Assembly: GCA_002269645.1 (NCBI GenBank)
Contig: NIVC01000906.1
Span: 350,639-414,638 of the forward strand
Reading direction: 5' to 3'
Length of the DNA stretch: 64,000 nt
Source of the DNA: Macrostomum lignano
Taxonomy: Eukaryota
Shown here piece after piece: positions 1,509 to 64,000 of the stretch. Within the stretch, counting starts at the first letter, position 1. The number at the start of each line of letters is the position of its first letter. A program made the position numbers and the translations under genes. The notes under the pieces are model-generated. The model was given only the letters and a program-made list of their open reading frames with translations. It made no database searches and was not told the DNA's origin.

Positions 1509-1894
1509 TTTTCCGGATATTCTGGCGGCGCGCGAACAGCAAAATGAAAGAATCCGCCTTCGTACGGCGTATCGGGTTGGCCACGGATCAGGTAGTCGAT
1601 TCGAGAAGTGTCGTTCTCGTTGGGAAACACATCGGCACCAGGGCGCCGCTCCTCTGGCATGAGATTGCGCAGATCTGACAGAATACGGGCTACACAGCTT
1701 GGTCCGTAGCTGCTGATACTGAATTGAATTCTGTCAGGGTGCCACTCGTCAGGCCTTTGCACGATAGGAATAGGAGCCACTGGTGGCAGACCTCCGAGCT
1801 GTTCAAACATTTGCTGCAGCGCTTCAAATGGAAACTGGATTAGATTTTCATTGTCCATATCTTCAGCCATATTTTGTTTGGTATCTAAAAACAT
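1509..1894 (-). CDS. UBE2Z: Ubiquitin-conjugating enzyme E2 Z-like, first coding exon; the rest of the gene lies beyond the left edge
   Basis: PSCVARILSDL...DVFPNENDTSRIDYLIRGQPDTPYEGGFFHFAVRAPPEYP resembles the UBE2Z UBC N-lobe. The exon ends at a GT donor (AA/gtaaat, 1508). The start may be ATG 1870. Confidence 0.75.
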
Positions 1895-7633: not shown

Positions 7634-8763
7634 ATGGCAGCCAGCGGCGATCCATTCTATGAATATGTGTCCAAACTAGCCGGCTCCGTGGTGGTGCATC
7701 CACTAACCTTCTCCCGCATCCTGGTGCAGCTGGGCTGGGAGCCGGACCCGCCTAGCCTGGGCAAGAATCTGTTCCGTCGGCAGAAGCTGTTCTATCCGAA
7801 CATGTTTCGCCACGTCGGCCGGGTCCGAGACGAGGTTGGCGGCGTGTTTCCGCTGTGGACCACCGGCCTGCTGGCCAAGCTGACCAGTCAGGTGATTCGC
7901 GAGCTGACCCTCCGAGGCGTTGAGGCAGCCTGCGGCGGCGGCGGTGCCAGCGAGAAGAACTGGGAGCTCAATGCGAACTCGCTGAAGCAGATGGCCCAGC
8001 GCTGCTGCTACTCCAGCGTCGGTCGCTCCCTGGCGGTGTTCGCCTCCTACCCGCTGCACTCCGTCATGGTCCGCCAGATGGCCGCCGCCGTCTCCCACGA
8101 TGCCATCTATCGCGGCAACATTCTGAGCGTCATTCGCGAGATCTTCAACGAGGAAGGCATGCCGGGATTCTTCCGCGGCGTCACCGTGGCGATTGTTGGC
8201 GACCTGCTGGCGCTGTGGGCCACCAGTTTCATAGCCTATGCCGTTAATCAGTACATCATTGCCGACCGGTCCGCCCCGGATGTCAAGCAGGTGAGAGAGC
8301 CTGGGACAGAGCGATCACTTGAGAGGAATTTTCGCGTTACCTTTCGCGTGAGTACAGTTACTCACAGTTACAGTTATGATCTCCTCGCTAACTGCAGGTG
8401 GACTGTCGCCTTTATTTGCGGCAGCATCCACAGCCTCCCTGTGAACTTATGAATAACTTTGAAATGCTACGCTAAAAAAGTATATAGTCGCGCATACACG
8501 ACTTGTAAACCTCGCCCACTTCAAACTCTTAGGTGAGCCCAGTCATCGCCTCGTTCCTAGTGAGCTCCTGGACCTATCGCTACGGCGTGGTGTCCACCAA
8601 CCTTTGCATCCGTGGCAGCTCCGGGCTCAGCTTGTGCGTGCCGTACACCGACAGCGTTGAGTGCTGGCAGACGCTTAAACTGGCTGGCGGCCTGTCCCGC
8701 GGCGACAGCCTGTTCTTCCGGGTGGCCCCGCAGAGCGCCATGGCTGCTACCAGGCGGCGCTGA
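7634..8763 (+). CDS. MTCH2: Mitochondrial carrier homolog 2 (MTCH/Mtch); exons 7634-8290 and 8533-8763, 295 aa
   Basis: HPLTFSRILVQLGWEPDPP...LFRRQKLFYPNMF, YPLHSVMVRQMA, IFNEEGMPGFFRG, CWQTLKLAGGLSRGDSLFFR; phase-0 GT-AG intron. Confidence 0.9.
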
Positions 8764-46045: not shown

Positions 46046-47286
46046 ATTATCACTATCTAATTAGTGTATTTTTCTTGCAGTGAGAGCTCAATACGTCAAT
46101 GGCCATAGACTAAACTTCAATTCTTGAGCTGCTGCTGAGTTATAAATAGCTATACCTAGCTTATTAAATTGTAATATTTATGAATATCTTTGTCTTTAAC
46201 TTTAATTGTTTCAATCCGGAACTGATTGTTTGAATTAAAGTCGGGTGTTACTAAAGTGCATAATCACTTGAACAGAAATGCCTCAACGACATTGTAATTA
46301 TACTTTTACCCAGACGCAATGAAAAAATATTTTGGCCATTATTCCACAGTTTTGATGTGTACCATAGACATTTGGATTGAAAAAATCCATCGCTCAGTAT
46401 TTTTGTTAATAAATACAGAATAACAAGAAGTGAATGAACAAAAAGGAAAAATCATTAAAACTAAAGTACCAGCTACACGAAAAGAGTTAATAATAAATGT
46501 CACAGCTAGTGCAGTTTATCAGTTTGTAGTCGAAATTTGACAATGTAAAAATCAATTTGTCACCCAAAGTGAAACATGCACAGTTCTCAAAGCCGCAGTT
46601 TCCAAAGATGCTCGACACTTTAGCCTGATGATTTGGCACTGCAAAAGGAGTTGGTCTATGTTGAATGTTTTCTATGAAAGAGGAATACAGGTGCTCAAGT
46701 ATAGTTGCCGAACTTACCATTTGAAAGATGCACGTCTTGGTTAAATTGGCATGCGACTGATGAGCTTCGTCTGATGAGCTTCTTTGGTACTGCAGTATCC
46801 AAGCTGGGATTCTTTGGGACTGTCGGCTGCTCGACTGAATCGATTGGCCGCTTTCAGGCATCGTTTATAGCCGTCGAGGCGTTGAAGACTGCATGGTCGC
46901 GTTTTCTTCCTGCGGTAGCGGTGCGGTGCGGTAGCGCCGCACGGTTCGTTCAGTCGTCGACAGGAAGATTTTTTCAATTAATAAGCGCGGCTGTTTGACG
47001 AGATGCACCAGCCATGGTTGTTTGACAAGACAAATAGCTTTTTCTCCCACTACTCGCTTTCCTGATTTCTTGCAAGACGCAAGCGAAATCAGCACTCATC
47101 ACAGTGTTGTCTATGGTCAAACTAAGCCACACAACTCAGTCGTCTATGAATAAAACAACTCTTAAAACAGCCAATTGAAGCATGATAAAAAGTGTGGAAT
47201 GATGACAGCGACAAAAGTGTGGAATAATGGCCGCAAAAGTGTGGAATAATGACTGAGCGCTGAGTGAAAGTATAAATACAATGCAC

Positions 47287-47391
47287 TTGTATAGTATGCA
47301 ACTGAGTTGAATAATGGCCAAAACTCGAGTGCGCGTAGCGTAGCGCACGAGTGTCTATGGCCATTATTCAACTCAGTTGCATACTATACAA
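47287..47391. other. Perfect 34-bp inverted repeat with a 37-nt spacer
   Basis: TTGTATAGTATGCAACTGAGTTGAATAATGGCCA (47287-47320) and its exact reverse complement (47358-47391). Confidence 0.95.
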
Positions 47392-48937: not shown

Positions 48938-49435
48938 CACTGCGGAGATATGAGCCCTATCTCTGTGCATTGGGGACGGCTAAGCACTGCAGAGATATGA
49001 GCTCTATCTCTGTGCATTGGGGACGGCTAAGCACTGCAGAGATATGAGCTCTATCTCTGTGCATTGGGGACGGCTAAGCACTGCAGAGATATGAGCTCTA
49101 TCTCTGTGCATTGGGGACGGCTAAGCACTGCAGAGATATGAGCTCTATCTCTGTGCATTGGGGACGGCTAAGCACTGCAGAGATATGAGCTCTATCTCTG
49201 CTTAACACAGGAGTGATAGGAGAAGAGGCGGCCTATTTCTTTACACTGGAGATGGTTAACACTGCAGAGATAGGAGGAGAGGCGGCCTATCTCTTTGCAT
49301 TGGGGGTGGTTAACACTGCAGAGATAGGAGGAGAGGCGGCCTATCTCTTTGCATTGGGGGTGGTTAACACTGCAGAGATAGGAGGAGAGGCGGCCTATCT
49401 CTTTGCATTGGGGGTGGTTAACACTGCAGAGATAA
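48938..49435. repeat. Composite hairpin-unit array: six 47-bp units followed by about four 54-bp units
   Basis: Units start at 48938, 48985, 49032, 49079, 49126 and 49173, then 49258, 49312 and 49366. All share CACTGCAGAGATA...TATCTCT.TGCATTGGGG. Confidence 0.95.
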
Positions 49436-49476
49436 GATGTTAATCTATGTAATTGGAAATAATGTTTGCGAAAGAG

Positions 49477-49537
49477 CCAATCACAGAGCCCGGAGTGGGA
49501 TGGGTGGTTTGGGGTGGTTCGGTCGAGGGTATATAAG
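49477..49537 (+). promoter_or_regulatory. Putative Pol II promoter of the viral sense cluster
   Basis: CCAAT at 49477-49481, G-rich boxes, and TATATAAG at 49530-49537, about 105 nt upstream of ATG 49642. Confidence 0.65.
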
Positions 49538-49641: not shown

Positions 49642-50418
49642 ATGGACATCTGTGAAGGCTATAAGGCACAAGTCCAGGAGTTTGAAGGACAAAAATTTAT
49701 CGCTATTCGCAAATTTTACCGACACGGCAGCACGGCAAGTCTGAAGCCAGGCGTCCCAGGATTCAACCTGAATGTTCACCAATGGAAGAAATTGAAGGAG
49801 GTGAAACGCTCACTTGTGATTTCTGCACGCAACAACGAGCCCAAGGTCGTGAAACTCGGCTTCGATAAGTTTGTGGAAGTCAAAGGCGGCATCATTTGGC
49901 TCAAACGGCTGCCGGAAGATTGCTGCGAGGAGTTTTTGAGACGAAACGCCGTACCACTGACTCCGCCGCTGTGGCAGAAGCTCTGGAAAATCGCCTCCTG
50001 GATCGACGGTCAGCTGGTGGCTCCCTTGAGGAACACAATGCAGTACGAGCTGGAGTCTGATGAGGAAGAGGAGGAAGAGGACAAGAAGCTCAAGTTGGAG
50101 GCTGACCAGGACACGAAGCCCATAATGGAGACTGATGAGGGCGGAGATCATGCTGATGACGAGGACGTTAGCTCGCCCACAAGGCCGCGCATTGTGACTG
50201 AGCCAATCACATCCACACCGATACCTTCGGTTGATTCTGATGCTGGACTGCTTCCGCAGCGGGACACCAACCTTGAGGAAGATCCGGTGTGGTATCAGTT
50301 CAGGGCGCATGCAGCGGCTTCGACGGTGAGCAGCAGCAGCAGGAAGCGAAAGCTGCCATTTCAACTTCGTCGGCAGGACGCGATGAGGCTGCAGCCCAAT
50401 GTTCGCTTTGATAACTGA
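49642..50418 (+). CDS. PC4/Sub1-like ssDNA-binding coactivator with two tandem PC4-like repeats and an acidic tail
   Basis: EFEGQKFIAIRKFY...KPGVPGFNLNVHQWKKLKE matches the PC4 signature; a second repeat reads LGFDKFVEV...LTPPLWQKL. Confidence 0.8.
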   Translation: MDICEGYKAQVQEFEGQKFIAIRKFYRHGSTASLKPGVPGFNLNVHQWKKLKEVKRSLVISARNNEPKVVKLGFDKFVEVKGGIIWLKRLPEDCCEEFLRRNAVPLTPPLWQKLWKIASWIDGQLVAPLRNTMQYELESDEEEEEEDKKLKLEADQDTKPIMETDEGGDHADDEDVSSPTRPRIVTEPITSTPIPSVDSDAGLLPQRDTNLEEDPVWYQFRAHAAASTVSSSSRKRKLPFQLRRQDAMRLQPNVRFDN

Positions 50419-50738
50419 ACAGCTAGAATGCTTTGAATGCATTGGACTAACTAAATTACTTTTAGCTTGCACATGATTATCCAGCCTGACGGCACTATGC
50501 TGTTTTTTATCTCTGCTATTTCTGAAATGCTGGTGTGCGAGTGTTTTAGTGTTCGTTTTTATGGATTGTTTGCTTTCGGAAAATACACCGACTGTTACGA
50601 TGTTAGAGGTTTCAATCTGACAGTAATAAATTAATTTGCCACTCGTTTCTCTATCATTTAATTGGAATATAAATTTCTACTTAAGAAAAAATACTGTACA
50701 GCTAGAGCAGGTGGATAGGCACGTATCTTGATAAACCC

Positions 50739-51809
50739 ATGATGGAGAAAATTTATTTGAAACCTGAGCAACCGGCTAGTTTTTCTTGTGCCTCAAAGTT
50801 GCTGCATGAAGTGAGGCAAAGAGGTGATCGAATATCTGCAAAGAGCATTGAGCAGTGGCTCAGCGAGCAGCCAGTGCACACTCTGCACAAGCCAGCTAGG
50901 AGGCGATATCCAAGGGCCCCAATCATAGTGCGCGCAATCGATGATCAGTGGGAACTTGACTTAGTGGAAATGATTCCATTCGCAAAGCATAATAAAGGCT
51001 ACAAATATATTCTCACATGCATTGACGTGCTCTCAAAATGTGCTTGGGCCAAGGCACTGAAAAATAAATCTGCTGCAGAAGTGAAGTCAGCATTCGAGAG
51101 CATACTGAGAAGTTCAAAGCGCCAGCCACGCACAGTTCGCACAGATCAGGGGAAGGAATTTATCAACTCCACTTTCCGTCAATACTGCATTGACAGAGGG
51201 ATTCTGGCTTTCCCAACTAACAGCGAGCAGAAGGCAGCTGTCATTGAGCGATGGAATCGAACTCTGAAAAGTAGAATGTGGCGCTACTTCACCTACAAGA
51301 GCACACTGCACTGGCTTGATGTGCTGCCTAAGCTGGTAAAATCCTACAACAATACCTACCACAGAAGCATCAAAATGGCACCCACTAGTGTCTGCAAAGA
51401 GAATGAATCTGAAGTGTGGATGAACCTGTACGATGGAAAAGCAGTCGAGACTCTAGAAAAATTAAAGAAGCCTAAGTTCGCTGAAAACCAGTCAGTGAGA
51501 ATTTCCAATGCTCCACGGATATTCAAAAAGGGATACAAAGCGAGCTGGAGTGAGGAAGTGTACACCGTGGTGAGCAGAGCCCCAAAACATTATCCCTACA
51601 TGTACAAGATTAAAGACATGCGGGGGCAAGAGATTCGAGGACTCTTCCATGAGCACGAGCTGCAGGCTGTCCCGGACTCACAGCGGCTGTATGTGATTGA
51701 GAAGATCCTGAAAACGGAGAAGCGGAAGGGAAAAATTCGCTATCTGGTGAAATGGGCGGGCTACGACTCGACTGGCTGGGTGGATGAAAAAGACTTAAGA
51801 AAGGTTTAG
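50739..51809 (+). CDS. int: Retroviral-like (rve) integrase with C-terminal chromodomain
   Basis: QWELDL, IDVLSK, TDQGKEF, IERWNRTLK, YNNTYHRSIKMAP; chromodomain YVIEKIL...YLVKWAGY. Confidence 0.97.
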   Translation: MMEKIYLKPEQPASFSCASKLLHEVRQRGDRISAKSIEQWLSEQPVHTLHKPARRRYPRAPIIVRAIDDQWELDLVEMIPFAKHNKGYKYILTCIDVLSKCAWAKALKNKSAAEVKSAFESILRSSKRQPRTVRTDQGKEFINSTFRQYCIDRGILAFPTNSEQKAAVIERWNRTLKSRMWRYFTYKSTLHWLDVLPKLVKSYNNTYHRSIKMAPTSVCKENESEVWMNLYDGKAVETLEKLKKPKFAENQSVRISNAPRIFKKGYKASWSEEVYTVVSRAPKHYPYMYKIKDMRGQEIRGLFHEHELQAVPDSQRLYVIEKILKTEKRKGKIRYLVKWAGYDSTGWVDEKDLRKV

Positions 51810-51837: not shown

Positions 51838-52656
51838 ATGATTATAATGCGAACTATTTTGATTAACAGTGAGCATGCTGAAGGTACTCCTAGTGACTTT
51901 AATTTTTACCTGCCTTCACCTATTTACTTGGATCGAAATGTGGACTATGAGGCAGGTCTGGCTGAAATCCATCTGCCTGCTGCATGGTTCAATGTTGACG
52001 AGCCTTACTGCTTCACTGTCTCAGATGGAAGAGAGCATGAGGCCCTGGTTCTTCAACCCGGACGCTTTGCTAGAGTGGAGGAGCTGGTGGAGCGCCTGAA
52101 TGAGCTGCTGGCCAACTCTGATTCGCTGTTCTTTGATGCAATGAGTGACAGGGAGTCTGAGATGGAGGCTGATGAGTCCGGCCTGATGGGGCGTAGTGGC
52201 AACAGGGAATTTGGTATGAAGTTCGAAATCCGCAACTCACGAACTGTGGTGCACAACAACACTGCGAGAGCAGAGCTGTTTCTTCCATCTAGTAAAATTC
52301 TGCATTGGCTGGGATTTGGAAACCAGGCTGTGAAAATCCAGCCAGGGAGCCGCGTATCCGAGCATTGCATTGGCTGCCCGCGCACCAGCTTAATCAATGT
52401 GCACTGCAGTATCGTTGAGTCAACTAATTGCAACTGGAGCTCCTTGTTGAGAACAGTTGGAATGAAAGCTGGCATTGAATGGGGCAACTATCAAACAAAA
52501 ATATTTAAGAAAACAATATTCTTCCCGATTCAACGAATCAGTCTTCTTCACAGCATTCGAGTTCAGCTGCGGGACATCTATGGTTGCCCACTGATTGCAC
52601 AGACTCACAGCCCTGTTCTGCTTACAGTTCAAATTCAGGAGAAACGCATTCAATGA
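51838..52656 (+). CDS. Minor capsid protein (penton, single jelly-roll), putative
   Basis: TPSDFNFYLPSPIYL..YEAGLAEIHLPAAWFNV N-terminus, and C-terminal VHCSIVES..LLRTV..IRVQLRD pattern typical of Polinton pentons. Confidence 0.75.
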   Translation: MIIMRTILINSEHAEGTPSDFNFYLPSPIYLDRNVDYEAGLAEIHLPAAWFNVDEPYCFTVSDGREHEALVLQPGRFARVEELVERLNELLANSDSLFFDAMSDRESEMEADESGLMGRSGNREFGMKFEIRNSRTVVHNNTARAELFLPSSKILHWLGFGNQAVKIQPGSRVSEHCIGCPRTSLINVHCSIVESTNCNWSSLLRTVGMKAGIEWGNYQTKIFKKTIFFPIQRISLLHSIRVQLRDIYGCPLIAQTHSPVLLTVQIQEKRIQ

Positions 52657-53030
52657 ACTACCAGCAGCTAATCCAGCAATATTCGGGGGTGAGGACAGGA
52701 CACGAAAAGCCTGCACTCTATGGCTGTGGGAGCTTCCCAGGGATCATGACATACCAGCCTCCGCCAGCGGCTATATCATCATCATCAGCCTCGACGCTTA
52801 GCAACGTCAGGCGCAAAAGAAATACTGAAGCAAGTCCGAAACGATTGAAGAAAAAGAAGGGCACCCGAAAGGCAACTGGTGGAAATCGCAGTAAGAGGTC
52901 GAGCAAGGCTAGTGGGAAAAAGCTTAAGAATAGGAAGACGAAAGCAAAGAAGAATAGAGCAGGCGGAGGAAAGCGAAAGCAAAAAGTCAGCAAGAAAACT
53001 GTGAAACGCGTGCTCGACTCTCTGTCATAG
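52653..53030 (+). CDS. Small basic Lys/Arg-rich putative virion core protein
   Basis: YGCGSF motif and a very basic C-terminus. The ATG overlaps the penton TGA, and the stop lies 2 nt before the capsid ATG. Confidence 0.6.
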   Translation: MNYQQLIQQYSGVRTGHEKPALYGCGSFPGIMTYQPPPAAISSSSASTLSNVRRKRNTEASPKRLKKKKGTRKATGGNRSKRSSKASGKKLKNRKTKAKKNRAGGGKRKQKVSKKTVKRVLDSLS

Positions 53031-54321: not shown

Positions 54322-54834
54322 ATGGATGCAATTCAACTACTTAATCTCGCCAGAAAATTTTTGCCTTACCAAAAATTTCTCATAGTTACTTTACATTTGC
54401 GCTATAAAAATTCTCTGCCCTTGAATGTAAAAAGAAAATTTAGATCATCAATTTCCTTTGAAAACAAGTTTGTTTTTGTCCTACTTCAGCACAATGGCTC
54501 ATTTGGTCACTGGGTGGTGTGCTATGTTGGGCAAGGAAATCGCATTGAGTTGTTCAACTCCCTCGGCTGGGAACCTGAAATTTTATCTTTGGTTTATAAT
54601 TTGTTTCGAGAGATTAAAACAACTGGCTTTTGGCTCCGAAGCAATATAAACAGAGTTCAATGTGCTAACTCTAATAAATGCGGAATGTTTTGCATCTATT
54701 TTGCTTATCAAAAGTTTCTGTTCAATCGGTCATTTGAGGGGATTTTGAAGCATTTGCATGCTAATGAGAAAAATCATTTGAATGATAGAATCTTACAGAG
54801 GTTTGAAGCCAACTTAAGAAAAAGATGTCCGTGA
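54322..54834 (+). CDS. Adenain-like cysteine protease
   Basis: GHWV, ELFNSLG and VQCANSNKCGMFCIYF (Q and catalytic C). Confidence 0.85.
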   Translation: MDAIQLLNLARKFLPYQKFLIVTLHLRYKNSLPLNVKRKFRSSISFENKFVFVLLQHNGSFGHWVVCYVGQGNRIELFNSLGWEPEILSLVYNLFREIKTTGFWLRSNINRVQCANSNKCGMFCIYFAYQKFLFNRSFEGILKHLHANEKNHLNDRILQRFEANLRKRCP

Positions 54835-55504
54835 TTTCTAATATTTATGCATTAAACATGGGAGAAAAGCAAGTTTGCTACGATATCCGCCTCAGGCAGG
54901 GAAGCTGCATGATTGTCTGCGGGCCCACCAATGCAGGAAAAACAACCTTTGTCGAACACCTGATCCAGTACAGAGACGTCATGTTTGATGTGAAGCCTGG
55001 CAGAGTTCTGTGGTACTATGGGATCTCACAGGCAGGCCATGCAGAACTGAACAGCCTAGGTGTGCAGCTGCGCCAGGGATTTCCCACCAACATCGAGGCA
55101 GCACTTAGGCCCAATGACCTGGTTGTTTTCGATGACTTAATAGAGGAAACTTCAAACTCTGCTTCAATGCGAAATTTTTTCACAGGAATCGCACATCACT
55201 TGCCGTGCTTTTTGGTGATGCTGACTCAGAATATATTTTTCAAGGGAAAAGAGTCGCGAACAATGAGCTTGAATGTAATGTACTTAGCTATCTTGAAAAA
55301 CCCCGAGACCAGCTGCAGATTGCAGCACTGGGCAGGCAGTGCTTTACAGAGAAGCCCGGCTTTCTGCTGTCAGTGTTCAAGCACGTGACCGCGCAGGGCA
55401 GGGGAGCCTACCTGTTCCTAGACTTTCACCCATCAACTCCCGATGAGCTGCGAGTGCGGGCCAGAATTCTGCCCAACCAGCGACCCCATCTTGTATTTGC
55501 TTAA
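54825..55504 (+). CDS. A32/FtsK-like packaging ATPase, split by a 1-nt frameshift at about 55301-55304
   Basis: Walker A GPTNAGKT, Walker B LVVFDD, HH..LTQNIF. After LKNP the homologous RDQLQIAALGRQ continues in the -1 frame. Confidence 0.9.
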
Positions 55505-55545
55505 GAAAGTGAAGCTTGTTTTTATCAGCTATTGTTTTCATCGCA

Positions 55546-55884
55546 ATGGAAGTGCTTGATTCATATGCAAGTCTTTTTGCGGTTCTTGCGTCACCTAAAT
55601 ATACCGTGCGCTTCAAGCGGCTGTTGATAAAAAATTGTCCAAAAGAAGTGCGTTATTTTCTTGTCGAGGCCTGCCATAATCTCTTACAAAACAATCTATC
55701 GTTTTCGCTCGATGAAAAAGCTGTTCTTGCAAAGTCAAAAGAGATAATTCGAAAAATTACTCACAAAAGAAGAAAGACAGACTTGTTGAAGGCTGGCTTC
55801 ATCAAAATACTCCCGATTCTGCTTAAGCTGGTAAAGAAGAAGAAGCAAAATGAACAAATTTTCAGAAATGGTTCTGATTCCTAA
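55546..55884 (+). CDS. Small basic conserved Maverick protein
   Basis: LVEACHNLLQNN...KIT..KRRK..LLKAGFIKILP resembles the ECALN.L.GN / GGF.LP small protein of Mavericks. Confidence 0.6.
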   Translation: MEVLDSYASLFAVLASPKYTVRFKRLLIKNCPKEVRYFLVEACHNLLQNNLSFSLDEKAVLAKSKEIIRKITHKRRKTDLLKAGFIKILPILLKLVKKKKQNEQIFRNGSDS

Positions 55885-56542
55885 AGCAGAGTATGAGATG
55901 TTGATGCAGAATTTGAAGCCAAATGAGACTACCACTGAAGCTGACTTGAAGCAGGCTCAGAAGAAATGCGATGACATCTTGTATGCCGAGGATTGTCCAG
56001 AAGATGTGAAAACCGCCATGTACCAAAGTGCAATGCAAAGTTTGCTGGCCAAGCGCAAGCACGCTGGAAAAGAAGGAGCACGCAATACTGAAGCCAAGTT
56101 GATGAAAACAGAGACACCCCAGATAAGCACCTGGGAAGAGAAGATCAGCAAGTCGGTGCCACAGAAATTCAAAACCAGGGCTCGCAGTCTGTGGACGATC
56201 CTGTCCACCAATCCAGAGCTGATTCGAGTTTGTGAAAACGGGGAGGTGGAAATCGCAGGCACGTCAATCCCTTCCTCAAACATACTGGACTTGATTCAGC
56301 ACACAGTGAGGGATTCGCCATGTGAGCGTGAACCAGTTGGGTGGAACGAGTTCATCGATTTTCTGCAGCAGAAAAAGCTTAATGTTCCGCTTTCCGCTGT
56401 TGGTAAATCAGTTAAGAAGAAAATGGCAACCAGCAGAGGGGGTGAACTGGAGAAAGAACAGGAGAGTCTAGTCAAGGGGTACGGGAGCAACACAGCCTGG
56501 CTGAAATTGCCTGCCAGAAAAGTATATAAGAAGGTGGACTGA
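55850..56542 (+). CDS. Conserved uncharacterised Maverick protein
   Basis: KSVP.KFKTRA..L, NGEV..G..IPSSNILDLI, PVGW.EF...NVP pattern seen in Polinton ORFs. Confidence 0.7.
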   Translation: MNKFSEMVLIPKAEYEMLMQNLKPNETTTEADLKQAQKKCDDILYAEDCPEDVKTAMYQSAMQSLLAKRKHAGKEGARNTEAKLMKTETPQISTWEEKISKSVPQKFKTRARSLWTILSTNPELIRVCENGEVEIAGTSIPSSNILDLIQHTVRDSPCEREPVGWNEFIDFLQQKKLNVPLSAVGKSVKKKMATSRGGELEKEQESLVKGYGSNTAWLKLPARKVYKKVD

Positions 56543-56571: not shown

Positions 56572-57423
56572 ATGAACTACATTGACTTCCAAGGATTCCC
56601 GTGCAACAGCACAAGCAAAAAATTTGTTGTGAAGGAGTTGGCAGTTGTTCAAATCAGAGCGGGGAGCTACCACATTGCTCACCATGTGTACGCACCTCCG
56701 TATCCATGGGAGAGAGTCTCACCTGACATGCGAGTTTACTACAGACAGCTATCTAAGAGTCTGCACCAGTTTAAGTGGAATGATGGAACCCGTCCGTACA
56801 TGGAACTGGCGGAAGACATTCTGAGCATTGCCAGTGGTCCGATCTGGTCAAATGGGGAAAGGAAGTCGATTTTTCTGACTGAGCTGCTTGGAAGACAGGT
56901 TTATAACCTAGAAGATTTGGGAGCACCCTCGACTGAAGATTCAGATACTGGCTGTGCAGTGAGAAATTCGTTGCTGCACTACAGTTGGCTTAAGCCAAAG
57001 TTCTGCATCAACTTAAGAAGCGAGCAGTGTCCGTGGCACACGAGCAGTAAAGTTGGCAGAAGCAGATTTGGTGAAGAAGTTGACGATCGAAATGAGCCCA
57101 CCAGCTACAGCCCTAAGAGTGACCAATCTGGTTGGCGGAGTAGATCTGAGACTGGATGGTGGCAGGGGCGCTCAGCTGCCTCTACGGGAACTGGCTCTCA
57201 GCATGGCTCATGTGATCTACCGGCCCGTCTGGCCCCGGGTGCTCATCAAGCGGATGCGGATTCCCAGAGTGACTCTCCTACTCTACCCTACTGGGCAACT
57301 GAGCATCTGCGGTGCCAAGACCCACGCAGACGCCAAAAGGGCTGCCCGTCGCTTCGTGGCTATGCTGCATCGGAGAGTGCCGGCTCAACTGCTGCCTCAT
57401 CAAACAATTTGTGTTCGAATTAA
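56572..57423 (+). CDS. DEDD-like exonuclease-fold Maverick protein; C-terminal ~110 aa overlap the next ORF and may be non-functional
   Basis: IDFQGF..FVVKELA..PPYPW..HQFKWNDG.RPY..NGERK..VYNLEDLG..CAVRN. Confidence 0.6.
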   Translation: MNYIDFQGFPCNSTSKKFVVKELAVVQIRAGSYHIAHHVYAPPYPWERVSPDMRVYYRQLSKSLHQFKWNDGTRPYMELAEDILSIASGPIWSNGERKSIFLTELLGRQVYNLEDLGAPSTEDSDTGCAVRNSLLHYSWLKPKFCINLRSEQCPWHTSSKVGRSRFGEEVDDRNEPTSYSPKSDQSGWRSRSETGWWQGRSAASTGTGSQHGSCDLPARLAPGAHQADADSQSDSPTLPYWATEHLRCQDPRRRQKGCPSLRGYAASESAGSTAASSNNLCSN

Positions 57424-57664
57424 AACTATTACTGCTCATGGACAGCTCCCAGTTCATTCCGCACTTTCCTTATTAATGTTAAAATCAATTATCCCAAACG
57501 CCGAATATGAACCAGAATCCTTTTCTGCTTTAATTTTCAATTTAAACTTTTGTAAATGTCTGCTTTTTCACAGCGGCTCTTTTGTTCTCAGTGGAGCTCG
57601 GTCCTTGAATCAGTTGCATACCGATAGCATGCGTCTACTCAATGTAGTTCTTTCCATTGAATAA
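57092..57664 (+). CDS. Divergent TATA-binding protein (TBP)-like core, 190 aa
   Basis: Two TBP repeats: VTNLVGGVDL..LPLRELAL..VIYRPVWPRVLIKRMRIPRVTLLLYPTGQLSICGAKTHADAKRAARRF and AEYEPESFSALIF..CLLFHSGSFVLSGARS. AATAAA x2 at the stop. Confidence 0.85.
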   Translation: MSPPATALRVTNLVGGVDLRLDGGRGAQLPLRELALSMAHVIYRPVWPRVLIKRMRIPRVTLLLYPTGQLSICGAKTHADAKRAARRFVAMLHRRVPAQLLPHQTICVRIKTITAHGQLPVHSALSLLMLKSIIPNAEYEPESFSALIFNLNFCKCLLFHSGSFVLSGARSLNQLHTDSMRLLNVVLSIE

Positions 57665-58266
57665 AAATAAAGTCAAGTCAAGCAATTTGCCGCAAATATT
57701 TCAATGATTAGTGAAAAGTGAATAAAAGGATAAACTTGGTATTCTTTACATTCATTTTCCCAGGCAGACAGCTATGGAACACTTCAAAAACGTATTTAGC
57801 CCATCACCAAAAGTATCGCAAAACGCATATCAAATCCGAAAGTAAACAATACTACCATCGTTATAACAAACGATGTGCACCGAGAGAAGAGAAATAGAAA
57901 AGTGATAGAGAAAATATGATTAAAACGCTGATTGAATTTACAGGAACAATTTGTGTCAGATAAAAACCAAAAACACATTTTAAACAAGTAGTACACAAAG
58001 CAAACAAAAATGAATTAATATTGTATGAGCGCACTTGCCACACAGCTTTATAAAAAGTAAAACTTAAATTGATATCAATATTTCACGCCGCAAAAACAAA
58101 TTGACAGCTAAATCTAGCGCAATTAGCCAAGCATACAAATTTGTAAAAGTTACTACATGCAAGTCACTACATTTAAAACAGAATTTGGCAATTTAAACAA
58201 CTCTAAAAGCAAGAAAAAGTACTAAACAGTCTGTTAAACACCCGCACTAGACCAGTCGGATGCGCT

Positions 58267-61200
58267 TCAGCTGATCGTGGATGCGGGCGTCAGCGCATAG
58301 TGTCCGTAGGGCAGGCTTCGATTACTGCTAAGCCACACTCGCTTATCCTCCCACACCGATAGGCTTCTTTTCTCCATGACCGACGTGAAGATTTCGTGTT
58401 TCTTGGAAACAATCGCTGTCATGGCAACCATCTGCTCTTGCTTGGACTCGAACGCGTCGACATAGTTCGCATGCGAAATTTGCTGTCTTACTACTGACTG
58501 CTTCACGCCTTTGGCAGTTTTCTTGATCTTTGCACTCGAATTCTCGGCAGGGAGAAACGAATAAAGTTTTGGACGCAAAAGAATCCACTCCTGGTAAATT
58601 CCACCAGCAGATTCATCTTTAACGCAGCCCAGCTTTCCTTTTAACTCTTCAGAGAAATGCGGATGGTCTCGAGAATAGTTGGATGTGTCAAGTATTTTTT
58701 CCTCTCTAAGCTTCGGGATTACCTCCGATGTTAAATCATGATTCTTGAAAGCTAGAAAAAATGAGTCAGTATCACCTCCGCAAAGCATCATGTCTCTGGA
58801 ACCGTCTGAATGACAGAACAGCGGTCGGAGCCTGTCATATAGTAGGCTGTACATGGCCATCTTAGAGAGATCGAGAACTGCCTGGCCAACGAAAATGGCC
58901 TTGTCAAGCGTGACTTTATCTTTTTTGAGCTGAAAAATGCTCAACGACTCATTGATAATCGAGAATGCGGCACAGTTTGGTCGAGAGGCGCAAGTTTCTG
59001 CTTGAGTCTGGTTAGTGCAAATTCGAACATCGCATCTTTTTCGAACGTTCTCCATAGTTTTTCCAAAGAGAGAATTGTTTTTCAATTTGTAAAAATCCTT
59101 AGCAAACTCGGAAGTTGCCAAAGCTCTTTTTTCATTGTTGCTGGCAATGTACGGCGCGAAAATATTTTCCTGCTTGAACGAAATCATTTTTTTGACGCAC
59201 TTGATCCGCATTCCGTGTTGCAGGTAAAATCTTAAAACGGTGCTGTGAACTACGTAAGAATCCTTGTCGGTACAGGTGAGTAGAAGCTTCTCCGTTGCTT
59301 GAAACTTAGCTTCAGCATTGCCAGTTCGCTGTTCAGCAATCTCTTTCCATAGTTCGGCCATGTACGGCGAGAATTGATCTGGCTGTGGTTTTGATTTTTC
59401 AGGTGCAAACGGTAACTCCTGAGTCGAATCGTGAATCTCAGCTGGGTATTCTAGATCGAGTTGAACAAGGTAGGCGATCTCGGCTTCTGGATTGAGTGAC
59501 AGAAACCGATTGGAGTCCCAGAACTGGATTTCCTGTTCCGGTACCCACCTGAATTCCCTGCATGGAAGCGGAAGCGACAGGGCAAAGCCATACAAGTTGT
59601 TCATATCGATCGGCATGAGGCTTACACTCTCTTGCTGATCATCATAACCTGGCAAGCTAGGATTATTACCTTTGACGCAATGCACATTAATGAAGGACAT
59701 GCCTCCTCGTATTCCCTTCTCAAACAGATGATACATGTCAGCATCAGTCAGCTGCTCTAGAACCACTCCAGTCGACTTTAGAGCTGAGTCGTAAGACAAA
59801 CCAGGAGTAGTAAAGTAGTGTACCGGATCCAATCCGTCCTCTTTCAGACTGGCCTGTCGGAATGTCTCGAAAATGTCAGCCAGCTGCCTTACATCCATTT
59901 CAAGATAGGCGAGCATATAATCCTTCAAACTTTTGCATTGAAATGCCGCCCATGCCGCTCTTGCTCTATTGTAGTCGTCGTCGGAAATTCCCCGATCGGA
60001 AAGTCGATTAAAAAAAGCATCTTTAGGCGGCAAAACCGACTGCTCGAGAATCTCAAATCCTGTGAGGTAATCATATGGGAAAATCCCTTTTTTTCGAAGT
60101 AGCTCTCTTGAAAGATGTGGTCTTGACTCAAGCATTTGCATTGTCAGCTTGCATTCAGCTTCGGGAAGATTAGCAAACAAATTGGACAAACTTCCCTTCA
60201 AAAAGCAGAGCGAGTCGATGAACTGAATTGTAAACATGATTGGCACAACTTTTCCGTTCTTTACGTAACTTGCAACAGGGAATTCCGCCCTTAGTGACAA
60301 GTATCGCTCGGATGATTGCGGAACAACACTAAGTTTCCAATTTTTCATGCTCCCAAGCGCAGTGGAAAGTAGAAGATGAAGGTCGTAGCCGCCTAAGTTG
60401 TGAAAAACCAGGGGCAGAAACCGGCGTCGGAGCTGTGCTCGCAGGTTGCATTCTTGACATGCTGCACCTTTGTACTGTCCATTTAAATGATCGTGGTCAA
60501 AATGTTTATCTGTAGAACTTTTAAAGTTCTTCTTGCAGTAGTGACATACCTCAGCAGAATTGAAATCATCCATGACGGTCGCGGATGATCGGTCAGCCGG
60601 CTGGTGGCTATGCTTCTGGTTCCAGTGAAATATATCCTGAGCCAGGCTTTCAAGAGATTTGAGAAAACCAAGGATACACTCATCAGGGTCCGCATTGCAA
60701 AAGACCTTGTACATGTCTCCTTCTGGCCTAAGCGGAGGTCCTGTCATGCCTTCACGAGGCACTGCAAGAAAAGCTGCTGCACATGGTTCATGCTTTGAGA
60801 TCAGGTTAGCAGGGTCTGTGTTCGCTCGCAAAATGGCTTCCAGGTCGGCATAGGCAACGAATGGTGGACTGACAGTGTTTTGACAGTTTCGGAACTTTAT
60901 TTCATTCTGTCCTGGAACTGGAAGCGTTTCTTTGACAGGATTTTCTGCAGTAATGCTGCATTCGTTCCTGTGCTCTTGAAGCCTCTCGTTGCTATAAAAT
61001 GATGTTAAACATTTCGTGCACCACTTCCTCATGGCGGGACCATTACGACTGTTCATTAACCTGTCAAAATTAGTAATTGCACACCAGTGCTCCGATCCGT
61101 AGCTGTCTTTAACTAGCAAAAGCATGAGGTGTCTTCGGTCATCTGACTCATGCTTGCGGCGACGGAGAAGAGTCACACTGCCCTGCTGCCAAGAGAACGC

Positions 61201-61596
61201 AGAAATGCAAATTCCTGGATTGTTAGACTCGACGCGATCGATATCAGCGACACTCACTGGCATGGAGATTTCTGCAAAGTCCAGCTCACGCAACCATTCA
61301 TCGTAAGAGGATATTCTGTTGGGCGATTTCTGAACTTTCGGATCGGCGCTGTGCAGTGCAGCGAGACAGGCGTACAGGAAACAGTCTTTGCCTGTGCTCG
61401 GTGGATTGATAACAGCCTTTTTGTTCTTCAAACTGGCAGGAAGATTGAATCTAACGGCTCTGCCCTGGCGAAATCGAATTGGATTGTACCTGGCAAGGTT
61501 GATGTCTAGAAAATTAATTTGTTTAATTGTCCAGCCACTGCCGTTCGTATTAATCATACTACAGATCCTCTCCAACTCCTGCTCCTGCTCAATCAA
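58267..61596 (-). CDS. polB: Protein-primed family B DNA polymerase with an endonuclease VII-like insert
   Basis: Exo YADLEA, FHNLGGYD and YLEMDV; Pol IDMNNLYG, KLKNNSLFGK, GDTDS and RPKLY; insert CHYC..DHDHLNG..KGAACQECN. The N-terminus extends upstream across a frameshift. Confidence 0.97.
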   Translation of the reverse strand: MIEQEQELERICSMINTNGSGWTIKQINFLDINLARYNPIRFRQGRAVRFNLPASLKNKKAVINPPSTGKDCFLYACLAALHSADPKVQKSPNRISSYDEWLRELDFAEISMPVSVADIDRVESNNPGICISAFSWQQGSVTLLRRRKHESDDRRHLMLLLVKDSYGSEHWCAITNFDRLMNSRNGPAMRKWCTKCLTSFYSNERLQEHRNECSITAENPVKETLPVPGQNEIKFRNCQNTVSPPFVAYADLEAILRANTDPANLISKHEPCAAAFLAVPREGMTGPPLRPEGDMYKVFCNADPDECILGFLKSLESLAQDIFHWNQKHSHQPADRSSATVMDDFNSAEVCHYCKKNFKSSTDKHFDHDHLNGQYKGAACQECNLRAQLRRRFLPLVFHNLGGYDLHLLLSTALGSMKNWKLSVVPQSSERYLSLRAEFPVASYVKNGKVVPIMFTIQFIDSLCFLKGSLSNLFANLPEAECKLTMQMLESRPHLSRELLRKKGIFPYDYLTGFEILEQSVLPPKDAFFNRLSDRGISDDDYNRARAAWAAFQCKSLKDYMLAYLEMDVRQLADIFETFRQASLKEDGLDPVHYFTTPGLSYDSALKSTGVVLEQLTDADMYHLFEKGIRGGMSFINVHCVKGNNPSLPGYDDQQESVSLMPIDMNNLYGFALSLPLPCREFRWVPEQEIQFWDSNRFLSLNPEAEIAYLVQLDLEYPAEIHDSTQELPFAPEKSKPQPDQFSPYMAELWKEIAEQRTGNAEAKFQATEKLLLTCTDKDSYVVHSTVLRFYLQHGMRIKCVKKMISFKQENIFAPYIASNNEKRALATSEFAKDFYKLKNNSLFGKTMENVRKRCDVRICTNQTQAETCASRPNCAAFSIINESLSIFQLKKDKVTLDKAIFVGQAVLDLSKMAMYSLLYDRLRPLFCHSDGSRDMMLCGGDTDSFFLAFKNHDLTSEVIPKLREEKILDTSNYSRDHPHFSEELKGKLGCVKDESAGGIYQEWILLRPKLYSFLPAENSSAKIKKTAKGVKQSVVRQQISHANYVDAFESKQEQMVAMTAIVSKKHEIFTSVMEKRSLSVWEDKRVWLSSNRSLPYGHYALTPASTIS

Positions 61597-62159
61597 CCAG
61601 TTGTTTAAACGGCCTGCTTCACCACCTAGGTCTAGGCCTGCATTTTACAGCTTATCCATCTGTCCTCTTCGGCAAGCATCTCCCCATCTCTTATTCGGAC
61701 CATTCGAATATTCGCCTTTAGCTGAACTTTGTAATGATGTCTTGAAATTCTTTGCTGAACTGCCTCAATAATTTTGTCTCCAGCTTGGACAAAAAATTCT
61801 GACGGAAGCGTGTCTGGGTGACTCGATCTGAGCCTCAGTATTTCCAGTGATTGATCATAGGCTTGGGCAACTCTGCTGAAGCTGACTGTTGAACCTGGTT
61901 TGTGGTTTTAGGATAATATTTTTGTTTTTTGCTGCCTATAGTTTCAAATATCAAAGATACTAAACTAAACGTCTGTACCCAAGCATACATGTACAACCCT
62001 ACCGGTATAAAGTCTTTTATCTCCCCTTCTCCCATTCTTTGGACTAAAATTTTAGACTGCATAATATACATCGCATTGATAAGAAAATTTTTAAGTAAGT
62101 TGAAAAGGATAAATAAAGGCACTTACCTTGGTGTGCATCAGTCACCGACTCGCTGTTGG

Positions 62160-62520
62160 CTGCTGACTCGCTGCTGGCTGCTGACTCGCTGCTGGCTGCT
62201 GACTCGCTGCTGGCTGCTGACTCGCTGCTGGCTGCTGACTCGCTGCTGGCTGCTGACTCGCTGCTGGCTGCCGACTCGCTGCTGGCTGCCGACTCGCTGC
62301 TGGCTGCCGACTCGCTGCTGGCTGCTGACTCGCTGCTGACGTCATGGTCCACCCAAGGGTGGTCATACTCGATCCACGAGTGGTCATCCTCCATCCACGA
62401 GTGGCCATTCTCCATCCATGAGTGGTCATTCTCCATCCATGAGTGGTCATTCTCCATCCATGAGTGGTCATTCTCCATCCATGAGTGGTCATTCTCCTGC
62501 TCCATCCAGGAGTGCTCAAC
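62160..62520. repeat. Adjacent 18-bp (SESAAS) and 21-bp (ENDHSWM) in-frame repeats
   Basis: Unit lengths are multiples of 3 and lie within one open minus-strand frame. Confidence 0.9.
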
Positions 62521-63539
62521 CATAGAAAAGGCAAGCAGTTAAAAGCTGACAGTGTTTACTGGCTGCAACTGAGTGTCATAAGCAACTGGGAGTGAATATT
62601 TGAAATCTTTTTCGTAAGTCTTTATTGCTGCAATACTGGTACAATATCCACACTTACAAGCTAGTAGATGCTGGTTATATTTTTTTGGTTCTCCTTAAGC
62701 TAGCTCTCTGCATGCATATTCTATTGATCCCTATTCGTAAAAGTTCGTTTCTATTTGCCTCCTACGCAGACTCAATCGGTAAAAAATGCAAAATGAAGCC
62801 AATAGTTAATTAACAAACCAATCACCGAGTGGAAAAATGCTGACATTATATATATTTTTTTAAAAAAAATATCGAATTCACATGGTGCAATCATAGTCAA
62901 TAAACAATGCATGGAACAATGAATTACAAATACAGACGAGAGTTTAGAAGCAGAAATATAGCTGAAAAGTTCAATAATTAAAGAATGAGGAAACACCGCG
63001 TCAAAGCAGTAGAAAGAAAATTATACCTAATCAATCGCACCAAGCATACGAAACCATCACCAATTTATTGAAAGTATGTTATGTTGATTTTAATTTGTTA
63101 AATTCAACTGTATAATGTTTCACCTACTTTTCAAATAATTTTTTTTACCTCGGATACCAAAAAAATATTGGTTGCCACTACGAGCTACGAGCTTTTTTTA
63201 AAACTAATTTGGAAATGAAAACTGAAAACTTATAAGCAAGATTCCTAGAAGCGAATACAGAGTTATGAGATGATCAAATCATTAATTAATGTACCTACTT
63301 TCAACTTTAAAAAGCTAGTTGAAATAAAGTTTTAGCAATAATTGCAATAAATGGGTAGATTTCTCACTCCACACAGAAAGCAAAAAAGTACAAAAATTGC
63401 TTAGTCACAGCGGCACAATTCTAATACGATTTTCGAAAATCGTTACCTCGTACCCAGCCCCGCCGACAGGAGGCAGAAAGAAGGCAACTCCAGCTGGCAC
63501 GGGTGGAGTTTCGGATTGAGAAGCTGGAATTGTAGAGGC

Positions 63540-64000
63540 TGCAGCTGGGGCGGCTGGAGCAGCTGGGGCAGAGAGCAGCTGGGGCGGCCAGAGCAGCTGG
63601 GGCGGCTGGAGCAGCTGGGGCGGCCAGAGCAGCTGGGGCCTGGAGCAGCTGGGGCAGCCAGAGCAGCTGGGGCGGCCAGAGCAGCTGGCGGCAGAGCAGC
63701 TGGGCGGCCAGAGCAGCTGGGCGGCCAGAGCAGCTGGGCGGCTGGAGCAGCTGGCGGCAGAGCAGCTGGGCGGCCAGAGCAGCTGGGCGGCCAGAGCAGC
63801 TGGGCGGCAGAGCAGCTGGGGAGCAGGCCAGAGCAGCTGGGGGCCAGAGCAGCTGGGCGCTGGAGCACGGGGGGCCAGAGCAGCTGGGGCGGCTGGAGCA
63901 GCTGGGGGGCCAGAGCAGCTGGGGCGGCCAGAGCAGCTGGGGCGGCCAGAGCAGCTGGGGCGGCCAGAGCAGCTGGGCGGCAGAGCAGCTGGGGCGGCTG
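63540..64000. repeat. GC-rich ~18-bp repeat (GAGCAGCTGGGGCGGCCA), running off the window
   Basis: Visible units of 15-18 bp. Confidence 0.9.

What the first reader, a model, noticed from the sequence alone, without database searches (positions are those of the whole stretch)
57092..57664. Maverick-encoded TATA-binding protein homologue
The last gene of the viral cluster is an intronless 190-aa protein with both TBP repeats. The C-terminal repeat keeps the DNA-intercalating Phe pair (YEPESF, LLFHSG). The N-terminal repeat has W and Y at those positions (YRPVW, LLYPTG) and keeps the conserved Asn (TNLV), while the second Asn is replaced by Thr. TBP-like genes are established in some giant nucleocytoviruses, but TBP is not part of the standard Maverick/Polinton/adintovirus gene set as I know it. 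It could redirect host Pol II to viral promoters with altered TATA specificity, or act as a dominant-negative decoy that shuts down host transcription.
Basis: partly seen in the sequence, partly recalled or inferred. Interest (0 to 1): 0.9.

Follow-up and report, generated by a model that had tools for sequence, protein, structure and literature searches.

The report
Maverick TBP with lineage-specific promoter boxes
Virus-like Maverick transposons in a flatworm genome carry their own altered TATA-binding protein, and each Maverick lineage has a different TATA-like box in front of its particle genes, which suggests a small built-in switch that points the host's RNA polymerase II at late viral genes.

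Summary
Confirmed: a 190-aa, two-lobed TBP homologue (Pfam 87 bits) inside a ~16.7-kb Maverick. It is a standing gene. There are 152 matches in the genome, 50 of 50 checked loci have Maverick neighbours, and dN/dS is 0.07-0.45. Two further Maverick clades in this genome and marine-metagenome Mavericks carry more divergent TBP-like genes. Each of the three clades has its own strand-specific TATA variant, mostly 25-75 nt before particle genes: YWTAAGAA (19 sense/0 antisense), TATAAGC (27/1) and TATAAATA (13/0). The DNA-facing saddle is invariant (15 of 18 positions) but differs from host TBP, and both TFIIB-binding glutamates are kept. Best reading (0.6): a late-gene factor that reads the box and recruits host TFIIB-Pol II, like herpesvirus vTBP/TATT. 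Binding is not shown. Against it: clade 3's box is a canonical TATA, and a complex model docks the upstream overlapping ORF's domain into the saddle (0.65 vs control 0.03), so the saddle may also be a protein site. One published figure legend lists TBP in a related element. The scan noted Polinton TBPs in four findings on other genomes, one with a TATAAAC box, which gave me the lead. The box code was not found in 10 literature searches.

The parts
57092..57664 (+). TBP-like gene, 190 aa, two lobes, no N-terminal extension
   Evidence: purifying selection
57012..57019 (+). CTTAAGAA box 80 nt before the TBP-like ATG (inside the upstream ORF)
56572..57423 (+). 283-aa ORF: ~156-aa folded domain of no Pfam family (Atlas lead to Maelstrom-like at 0.87 only), plus a tail overprinted on the first 110 TBP codons; predicted to dock in the TBP saddle
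56523..56532 (+). TATATAAGAA: canonical TATA and box in one, 47-49 nt before the 283-aa ORF
57420..57445 (+). zone between the two TBP lobes where sister elements switch ancestry (5' half goes with the upstream ORF, 3' half with pPolB); the overprinted frame stops and GC falls from 0.58 to 0.38 here
   Evidence: loose ends at 57443 in 2 of 4 runs
57660..57671 (+). AATAAA signals at the end of the + strand array; no box after the last gene
50680..50687 (+). CTTAAGAA box, 59 nt before integrase
51794..51801 (+). CTTAAGAA box, 44 nt before the putative minor capsid gene
   Evidence: same site in family B
52504..52511 (+). TTTAAGAA box, 149 nt before the small basic gene
52923..52930 (+). CTTAAGAA box, 110 nt before the putative major capsid gene
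54813..54820 (+). CTTAAGAA box, 45 nt before the likely ATPase start (12 nt before the first ATG of the frame)
55500..55507 (+). CTTAAGAA box, 46 nt before the 112-aa ORF; its TAA is the ATPase stop codon in sister copies
49530..49537 (+). TATATAAG before PC4; candidate early promoter for host TBP
49642..50418 (+). PC4-like coactivator gene
   Evidence: Pfam PF02229
50739..51809 (+). integrase with chromodomain
   Evidence: Pfam PF00665, PF00385
51838..54316 (+). 272-aa, 125-aa basic and 427-aa ORFs; read as minor capsid, core-like and major capsid from position, size and recall (no Pfam hit, fold not tested)
   Evidence: the 427-aa protein matches a marine Maverick ORF at E 1e-32
54322..54834 (+). 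adenovirus-type protease
   Evidence: Pfam PF00770, E 7e-5
54825..55504 (+). packaging-ATPase-like gene; frame interrupted in this assembled copy
55546..56542 (+). 112-aa and 230-aa ORFs of unknown function
58267..61557 (-). protein-primed B-family polymerase; no YWTAAGAA on this strand
   Evidence: Pfam PF03175
48862..64000 (.). the Maverick; left terminal inverted repeat of at least 324 nt from 48862; about 16.7 kb by comparison with a sister copy; right end lies beyond the contig end

Best explanation
The gene encodes the element's own late-promoter factor. Inferred steps: (1) host TBP opens canonical TATATAA promoters, for PC4 and for the unit that leads into the TBP-like gene; (2) the TBP-like protein binds a lineage-specific TATA variant (here C/T-T/A-TAAGAA) before the integrase, capsid, ATPase and other particle genes, and in this subfamily before its own gene, which would give positive feedback; (3) through its intact E-x-E stirrup it recruits host TFIIB and Pol II, since the element has no polymerase and no detected TFIIB; (4) in this clade only, the domain encoded by the upstream overlapping ORF may plug the DNA-binding saddle and act as a timer or chaperone. 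Shown here: fold, conservation, selection, box enrichment and clade specificity. Not shown: DNA binding, start sites, timing, TFIIB binding.
For: Box in this element: CTTAAGAA occurs 6 times, all on the + strand. It is in 6 of 11 120-nt upstream windows, and 0 of 5000 random window sets reached 6 for any 8-mer. The TAAGAA core is unchanged at 6 of 6 sites inside coding regions across five diverged copies, against a 5-20% background. The first gene of the array has a box with no coding end before it, and the last gene ends in AATAAA with no box, which favours a promoter over a 3'-end signal. Boxes by clade, sense/antisense: 19/0, 27/1 and 13/0; cross-clade counts are 0-3. The pooled -75..-25 test gave p 0.001, <0.001 and 0.002. 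Protein: 15 of 18 DNA-facing positions (list recalled from yeast TBP) are invariant in 14 clade-1 proteins versus 33 of 172 others, p 8e-8; most differ from host TBP. Asn159/Val161 equivalents are Thr/Ser in 12 of 12 Maverick-context rows and 0 of 5 cellular rows. The TFIIB-contact acidic pair is kept in 12 of 12 (E/E or D/E), unlike many giant-virus TBPs (PMC7221094). dN/dS is 0.07-0.45. Precedent: herpesvirus vTBP with a modified TATA box (abstracts). Partner model: score 0.65, best control 0.03, runs agree in at least 84% of contacts, partner pLDDT at least 79. The mark was reached by 51 of 78 solved and 2 of 108 mismatched pairs; for eukaryotes by 39 of 65 and 2 of 126.
Against: There are no binding or start-site data. 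Clade 3's box TATAAATA is a canonical TATA, and 2 of family B's 9 sites are TATAAAAR, so host TBP could read some of them. A per-element test without prior motif choice (120-nt windows, automatic ORFs) was significant in only 2 of 11 elements, the window at 0.008 and C2373 at 0.045. Pooled elements are related, so those p-values are optimistic. The marine element fails the -75..-25 test (p 1.0), and several TAAGAA sites there and in family B lie only 5-12 nt before an ATG or include a stop codon. The protease and 230-aa genes have no conserved box. Many sites encode Lys-Lys or Leu-Arg, which can bias strand counts. One intercalating Phe is lost and one is Tyr. The predicted partner covers 14 of the 18 DNA-facing positions, so their invariance could reflect a protein interface. 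Blind neighbouring genes passed that test in 7 of 44 cases.
Confidence: 0.6

Rival explanations
1. The boxes are ordinary, weak TATA promoters read by host TBP. The element's TBP-like protein is a modulator or decoy that soaks up TFIIB, Mot1/NC2 or TAFs and so shifts transcription indirectly.
For: Clade 3 box is canonical and family B is near-canonical. PDB holds wild-type TBP bound to G(-26) and T(-30) TATA variants (entry titles). The TFIIB glutamates are kept while two intercalating Phe are changed.
Against: It does not explain why each clade fixes a different variant at many separate promoters. The family A box departs from TATAAAAG at positions 1, 2 and 6, which is recalled as poor for TBP. 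It also leaves the near-invariant saddle unexplained.
Confidence: 0.2
2. In this clade the saddle is mainly a protein interface. The TBP-like protein and the upstream ORF's domain form a stable heterodimer, and the box is read by the complex or by another protein.
For: Complex score 0.65 vs best control 0.03, with contacts on the concave face (calibration as above). The two genes are adjacent and overlapping in 20 of 20 loci of families A and B, and their 5' parts recombine together (rho 0.84).
Against: No homologue of the partner was found in clade 2, clade 3 or marine loci (1 true hit, a family-B copy, in 35 loci), yet those have TBP-like genes, boxes and the same Thr/Ser saddle signature. 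Partner interface residues are not better conserved than the rest (10 of 25 vs 36 of 131, p 0.23). Four invariant DNA-facing residues lie outside the modelled interface.
Confidence: 0.12
3. The motif is not a promoter but a 3'-end or stop-restart signal, and the TBP-like protein acts elsewhere, for example at the termini or in replication.
For: Four boxes lie within 20 nt of the upstream gene's stop and one contains it. TAAGAATG joins stop and start in the marine element.
Against: The box before TBP is 409 nt from the upstream stop but 80 nt from the ATG. The integrase box has no upstream coding end. Boxes in all three clades are TATA-like and mostly 25-75 nt from an ATG.
Confidence: 0.06
4. 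A captured host TBP retrocopy carried as a passenger.
For: Short, with no N-terminal extension.
Against: 24% identity to host TBP core. Purifying selection in both lobes. Present in three clades (9 of 10 sampled places) and in marine Mavericks. It falls outside the eukaryote TBP/TRF group in a quick tree.
Confidence: 0.02

Closest known systems
Beta/gamma-herpesvirus viral TBP (KSHV ORF24) and its TATT late-promoter box (PMC12529657 abstract; PMC6541308 abstract and outline)
   Same: A nuclear DNA virus without its own RNA polymerase encodes a TBP mimic, and its structural genes sit behind a modified TATA box.
   Different: ORF24 works in a six-protein complex, uses an extra DNA-binding domain and pre-assembles with Pol II. 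The Maverick protein is a bare 190-aa two-lobe TBP that keeps the TFIIB glutamates; no such companions were detected; the box differs by lineage.
TBP (and TFIIB) of large dsDNA viruses (Ravarani et al. 2020, PMC7221094; passages and section 3 parts 2-3 read)
   Same: Full two-lobe viral TBP with conserved DNA-side aromatic residues; structural hits in BFVD at 6-18% identity.
   Different: There the two glutamates often diverge and most genomes have their own TFIIB. Here the glutamates are kept and no TFIIB was found among 12 ORFs. The paper has no occurrence of 'transpos'.
Adintoviruses / MELD viruses (Starrett et al. 2021, PMC8502044; passages, section 3.4, one supplement searched; preprint passages)
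   Same: Same kind of element. [quoted passage not shown]
   Different: The figure is not visible to me, so the element is unknown. The section is about non-animal datasets. The preprint has no occurrence of 'promoter' or 'late'. No function, prevalence or box is given.
Cellular TBP and TRF2/TLF (host L051, L057)
   Same: Fold, N-lobe Asn, C-lobe Phe pair, YEPE stirrup.
   Different: 24% and 22% identity over the core; saddle residues changed; mobile, about 100 near-full-length copies of this clade listed.

Membership tests
TBP family (PF00352) | Two TBP lobes in one chain | tested here: met
   the N-terminal part of the model is low confidence
TBP family (canonical TBP) | Four intercalating Phe | tested here: not met
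   F144 and F159 kept; Tyr65 and Pro48 at the other two columns
TBP family (canonical TBP) | Two central Asn | tested here: not met
   N12 kept, T112 replaces the second
TBP family (canonical TBP) | Two C-lobe glutamates that contact TFIIB | tested here: met
   E140 and E142 invariant in 14 of 14; feature from PMC7221094; mapping to these residues recalled
TBP family (canonical TBP) | Binds and bends a TATA box | not testable with these tools
   no protein-DNA modelling or assay available
Maverick/Polinton | Protein-primed PolB and retroviral-type integrase | tested here: met
   PF03175, PF00665
Maverick/Polinton | Long terminal inverted repeats | tested here: met
   left end matches the opposite end of sister copy L067 over 324 nt at 99.7%
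Maverick/Polinton | Adenovirus-type protease and packaging ATPase | tested here: inconclusive
   protease PF00770 just over cut-off; ATPase only weak P-loop hits in Pfam, 33% to a marine Maverick ORF
Maverick/Polinton | Double jelly-roll major and single jelly-roll minor capsid proteins | not tested
   assigned by position, size and recall; no fold prediction run
Maverick/Polinton | 6-bp target-site duplication | not tested
   right end of this copy is beyond the contig end
Herpesvirus vTBP/vPIC system | Modified TATA box before structural genes | tested here: met
   sequence level only:
Herpesvirus vTBP/vPIC system | TBP-like domain within a large protein with extra DNA- and Pol II-binding parts | tested here: not met
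   190 aa, wholly TBP core
Giant-virus orthogonal TBP-TFIIB pair | Own TFIIB gene and diverged glutamates | tested here: not met
   no TFIIB Pfam hit in 12 ORFs (a very divergent TFIIB could be missed); glutamates kept
TRF2/TLF | Groups with host TRF2 | tested here: not met
   22% identity; separate in a quick IQ-TREE run with long branches; the careful search did not finish

The most novel reading that the evidence does not exclude
Animal Mavericks run a one-protein early-to-late switch. Each lineage has co-evolved a private TBP-TATA code that hijacks host TFIIB and Pol II, so several Maverick lineages can share a genome without cross-activating each other. In this clade a second viral protein plugs the TBP saddle as a dedicated anti-TBP timer. 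A polar residue at the Val122-equivalent position tracks with G at box position 6 (Ser in clade 1, Thr in clade 2, Asn in marine L078; Ile with A in clade 3; four cases, contact geometry recalled). That would be a natural set of altered-specificity TBPs.
Probability: 0.4. Interest if true: 0.9.

Novelty: new variant of a known kind. Interest (0 to 1): 0.76.

Why it matters
How Mavericks/Polintons, which lack an RNA polymerase, time their capsid genes is not addressed in the papers I found. A dedicated TBP with a matching box would be regulatory evidence for a virus-like life cycle. It gives a marker (box-driven transcripts) to look for that cycle in existing RNA data. It also offers naturally evolved TBP-TATA pairs of different specificity, directly testable in vitro, and possibly a new TBP inhibitor.

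Tried and rejected
Expression: no run was on record as RNA. Four guessed-RNA contig sets covered all 30 bins and showed no joints. This says nothing on expression, start sites or splicing.

Viral-contig scans with the TBP, ATPase, capsid and partner alignments found no Maverick; the one hit, L076, is a giant-virus-like contig. So I could not test whether Mavericks without a TBP gene lack boxes.

Partner ORF identity: no Pfam hit, no PDB sequence hit and no homologue by word search. The Atlas gave unnamed arthropod clusters at 0.95-0.96 and Maelstrom at 0.87. 'Nuclease-like' is a lead only.

The overprinted tail as a conserved protein is not supported: omega is 1.2-4.7 in that frame. Yet stops are avoided, with T at 0 of 12-16 risk sites versus about a third of safe sites, and the chance of such an open frame is 0.001-0.055. 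This is unexplained.

An ORF-TBP fusion: one public gene model (P0007) fuses them, but it switches frame mid-lobe and lacks the TBP N-terminus; taken as an artefact, not followed up.

CTTAAG before the 230-aa gene was rejected as a box (not conserved). Over the whole 64-kb window the motif is not clearly enriched (8 vs 3.7 expected, 5 of 100 shuffles); the signal is local to the element.

One origin of all Maverick TBPs is unresolved: 4 changes on a quick tree, with long branches meeting. The first module test had a slicing error for L048 and was redone.

The classic paper on TBP-TATA variant structures was not held, and a search for it failed. Base-contact assignments are therefore recalled.

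Full report
OBSERVATION. 57092-57664 (+) is one open frame of 190 aa. It scores 87 bits on Pfam TBP with two stretches. It hits 35 TBP chains among 36 PDB sequence matches, aligns to a profile of 30 cellular TBPs at 99.8% probability, and its model finds TBP structures first (E 6.6e-11; pLDDT 67, N-terminus poor). A 99%-identical public protein is named from the flatworm Macrostomum lignano. The host's own TBP (L051) and a TRF2-like gene (L057) are separate loci, 24% and 22% identical over the core.

THE ELEMENT. The gene ends the + strand array of a Maverick: PC4, integrase-chromodomain, three ORFs read as capsid-module genes (by position and recall), protease, ATPase-like gene, two unknown ORFs, a 283-aa ORF, then TBP-like. 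pPolB faces it on the - strand. The left terminal repeat starts at 48862. A sister copy gives a length near 16.7 kb, and this copy runs off the contig. The ATPase frame and the 5' part of pPolB are interrupted in this assembled copy; whether these are real breaks or assembly errors is open.

A STANDING GENE. The own genome gave 152 matches. About 100 of the 150 listed are near full length without stops (my count from the table; haplotype duplicates not removed). They fall into family A (74-100%) and family B (38-39%). All 30 loci and all 20 have Maverick genes beside the TBP-like gene. dN/dS in the TBP frame is 0.07-0.45 over the 17 family-A pairs printed, in both halves where dS is not saturated. 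An ATPase search showed more Maverick families. Of 10 places sampled, 9 had a TBP-like frame: one family B, and eight from two further clades. Clade 2 is confirmed by Pfam in part (2 of 4 over cut-off), hhalign at 96.8% and a pLDDT-88 model whose top hits are TBP, although with low TM-scores of 0.33-0.43. Clade 3 is weaker (Pfam E 1e-4, just under cut-off, in 1 of 2; hhalign 72%). These clades have 83 and 91 matches. Outside this genome, 5 of 80 metagenome loci found with short TBP relatives have integrase, capsid, protease or ATPase neighbours, and L078 has the full set. 45 of 272 database proteins, median 172 aa, share the Thr/Ser saddle signature; their context is unknown.

THE BOX. An earlier scan note on another genome (e1-7879962) suggested looking upstream of the genes. 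CTTAAGAA occurs 6 times in the element, all on the + strand, 44-110 nt before integrase, minor capsid, major capsid, ATPase, the 112-aa ORF and the TBP-like gene. TTTAAGAA and TATAAGAA precede two more genes. No random set of 11 windows reached 6 for any 8-mer in 5000 trials. The TAAGAA core is unchanged at 6 of 6 coding-region sites across five diverged copies, against 5-20% background and 6 of 42 for similar Lys-rich 6-mers. It recurs at matching places in family B. The other clades have other boxes: TATAAGC(A) and TATAAATA. Sense/antisense counts are 19/0, 27/1 and 13/0, with cross-clade counts of 0-3, and most sites lie 25-75 nt before an ATG. Pooled tests gave p 0.001, <0.001 and 0.002, but 1.0 for the marine element. 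Results against: an automatic per-element test was significant in 2 of 11; pooled elements are kin; protease and the 230-aa gene lack a conserved box; some sites are 5-12 nt from an ATG; clade 3's box is a canonical TATA. A TATATAA-type site heads PC4 and the unit upstream of the TBP-like gene in the window, in 3 of 4 clade-2 and 2 of 2 clade-3 elements. No YWTAAGAA lies on the pPolB strand.

THE PROTEIN SURFACE. I used DNA-facing positions recalled from yeast TBP. 15 of 18 are invariant among 14 clade-1 proteins that are as little as 36% identical, versus 33 of 172 other positions (p 8e-8). Yet they are rewired: F99P, F116Y, V122S, T124C, Q158K, N159T, V161T and V203K equivalents. N159 and V161 are Thr/Ser in 12 of 12 Maverick-context rows and in none of 5 cellular rows. 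The two acidic residues that contact TFIIB are kept in 12 of 12. In large DNA viruses these often diverge together with a viral TFIIB (PMC7221094). No TFIIB was seen among this element's 12 ORFs. Two scan notes report Polintons elsewhere that do carry one (unchecked).

THE OVERLAP AND A POSSIBLE PARTNER. The 283-aa ORF runs 106-110 codons into the TBP-like gene in 16 of 16 family-A copies, and 128 codons in 3 of 4 family-B copies, in the same phase. Stops are avoided, but the tail's amino acids are not conserved. An overlapping frame would block re-initiation on the upstream mRNA and make the TBP-like gene depend on its own box (inference). A complex model of the TBP-like protein with this ORF's 156-aa domain scored 0.65 against a best control of 0.03. 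Runs agree in at least 84% of contacts and partner pLDDT is at least 79. The mark was reached by 51 of 78 solved and 2 of 108 mismatched pairs; for eukaryotes by 39 of 65 and 2 of 126; blind neighbours passed in 7 of 44. The interface is the concave saddle and covers 14 of the 18 DNA-facing positions. This supports binding but does not show it, and it weakens the reading of saddle conservation as DNA recognition. However, the partner was not found in the other clades, its interface is not specially conserved (p 0.23), and the Thr/Ser signature is shared with clades that lack it. I read it as a clade-specific plug, comparable to saddle-blocking host regulators (recalled).

RECOMBINATION BETWEEN THE LOBES. 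Among 14 family-A copies (91 pairs), 38 pairs are at least 90% identical in both the upstream ORF and the 5' lobe; 31 of them are under 80% in the 3' lobe. The 7 pairs at least 90% identical in the 3' lobe are the same 7 that are so in pPolB. Contigs of 2 of 4 public runs switch to another subfamily's 3' lobe at 57443, so the mosaics are not an assembly product. N- and C-lobes are thus exchanged along with the structural and replication modules. The saddle residues stay invariant through this.

MECHANISM AND ODDS. Most likely (0.6): host TBP drives the early units; the element's TBP-like protein then binds its lineage's box and recruits host TFIIB and Pol II to particle genes; in this clade the partner may time it. 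Shown: fold, selection, distribution, box statistics. Inferred: binding, timing, TFIIB use. Rivals: host TBP reads the boxes and the viral protein is a modulator or decoy (0.2); obligate heterodimer (0.12); non-promoter signal (0.06); passenger (0.02).

KNOWN SYSTEMS AND NOVELTY. It works, by inference, like herpesvirus vTBP with its modified TATA box (abstracts of PMC12529657 and PMC6541308), but it is not a member of that system. It is a TBP-family protein by fold, not a canonical TBP (two Phe and one Asn changed). Ten searches found one direct mention: the Figure 5 legend of Starrett et al. 2021 lists TBP for some MELD element (figure not visible; one supplement had no hit). Three other papers checked by term had no TBP passage on Polintons. 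The library lacks most subscription papers and repeat databases, so an earlier annotation may exist. The scan has four unchecked notes of Polinton TBPs on other genomes. What this window adds is three co-resident lineages with three boxes, the shared saddle signature, the predicted plug and the inter-lobe exchange. Verdict: real, new variant of a known kind, interest 0.76.

Noticed in passing
L158:7560-7625, L159:1830-1860, L161:3350-3380, L166:7740-7790: In 4 of 4 clade-2 elements the TBP-like coding region begins right after a pyrimidine-rich AG that looks like a 3' splice site, and three lack a start codon there, so it is probably expressed by splicing. Clade 3 also lacks an ATG before the first motif and has a conserved TTGCAG there.
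   Followed up: partly
L166:6372-7790 (-); L158:6293-7015 and 1026-1601 (-); L171:1265-2041 (+): Clade-2 elements carry a deoxynucleoside kinase right after the TBP-like gene (in frame with it in L166) and a dUTPase; a clade-3 element has a Fic-domain ORF.
   Followed up: no
window 58267-61557 vs L036-L049: pPolB is only about 46-55% identical to that of sister elements whose capsid-module genes are 85-98% identical: frequent swapping of the replication module.
   Followed up: partly
L031-L035, L071, L173-L174: Family B has the same core gene order but pPolB at the left and an inverted PC4 gene at the right end.
   Followed up: no
window 62044-62523 (-): A repeat-rich 159-aa frame upstream of pPolB, inside the element, followed by what looks by eye like a splice donor and acceptor; it may be a first exon of pPolB. 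No joint was seen in run contigs.
   Followed up: no
L078:2729, 7290, 8232: In the marine Maverick TAAGAA is co-oriented with genes 18 times against 1, and in places forms stop-GA-ATG junctions; it also carries two PC4-like genes near its TBP.
   Followed up: partly
L171:3037-3714, L169:2820-3527, L158:7839-9003: The ORFs upstream of the TBP-like gene in clades 2 and 3 are unrelated to the 283-aa ORF, have no Pfam hit, sit behind TATATAAG, and share weak similarity with each other (E 0.001-0.004).
   Followed up: no
window 48938-49450 and 63495-64000: Tandem 47- and 54-nt repeats inside the left terminal region and 17-18-nt repeats towards the right end of the element.
   Followed up: no
window 1-48800: Host DNA rich in minisatellites, with exons that by eye resemble a ubiquitin-conjugating enzyme (1505-1894), a mitochondrial carrier (7634-8452), an SLC17-type transporter (27736 on) and a cytochrome b561-like protein (42889-43360); names recalled, not tested. 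A small inverted-repeat element lies at about 46290-47391.
   Followed up: no
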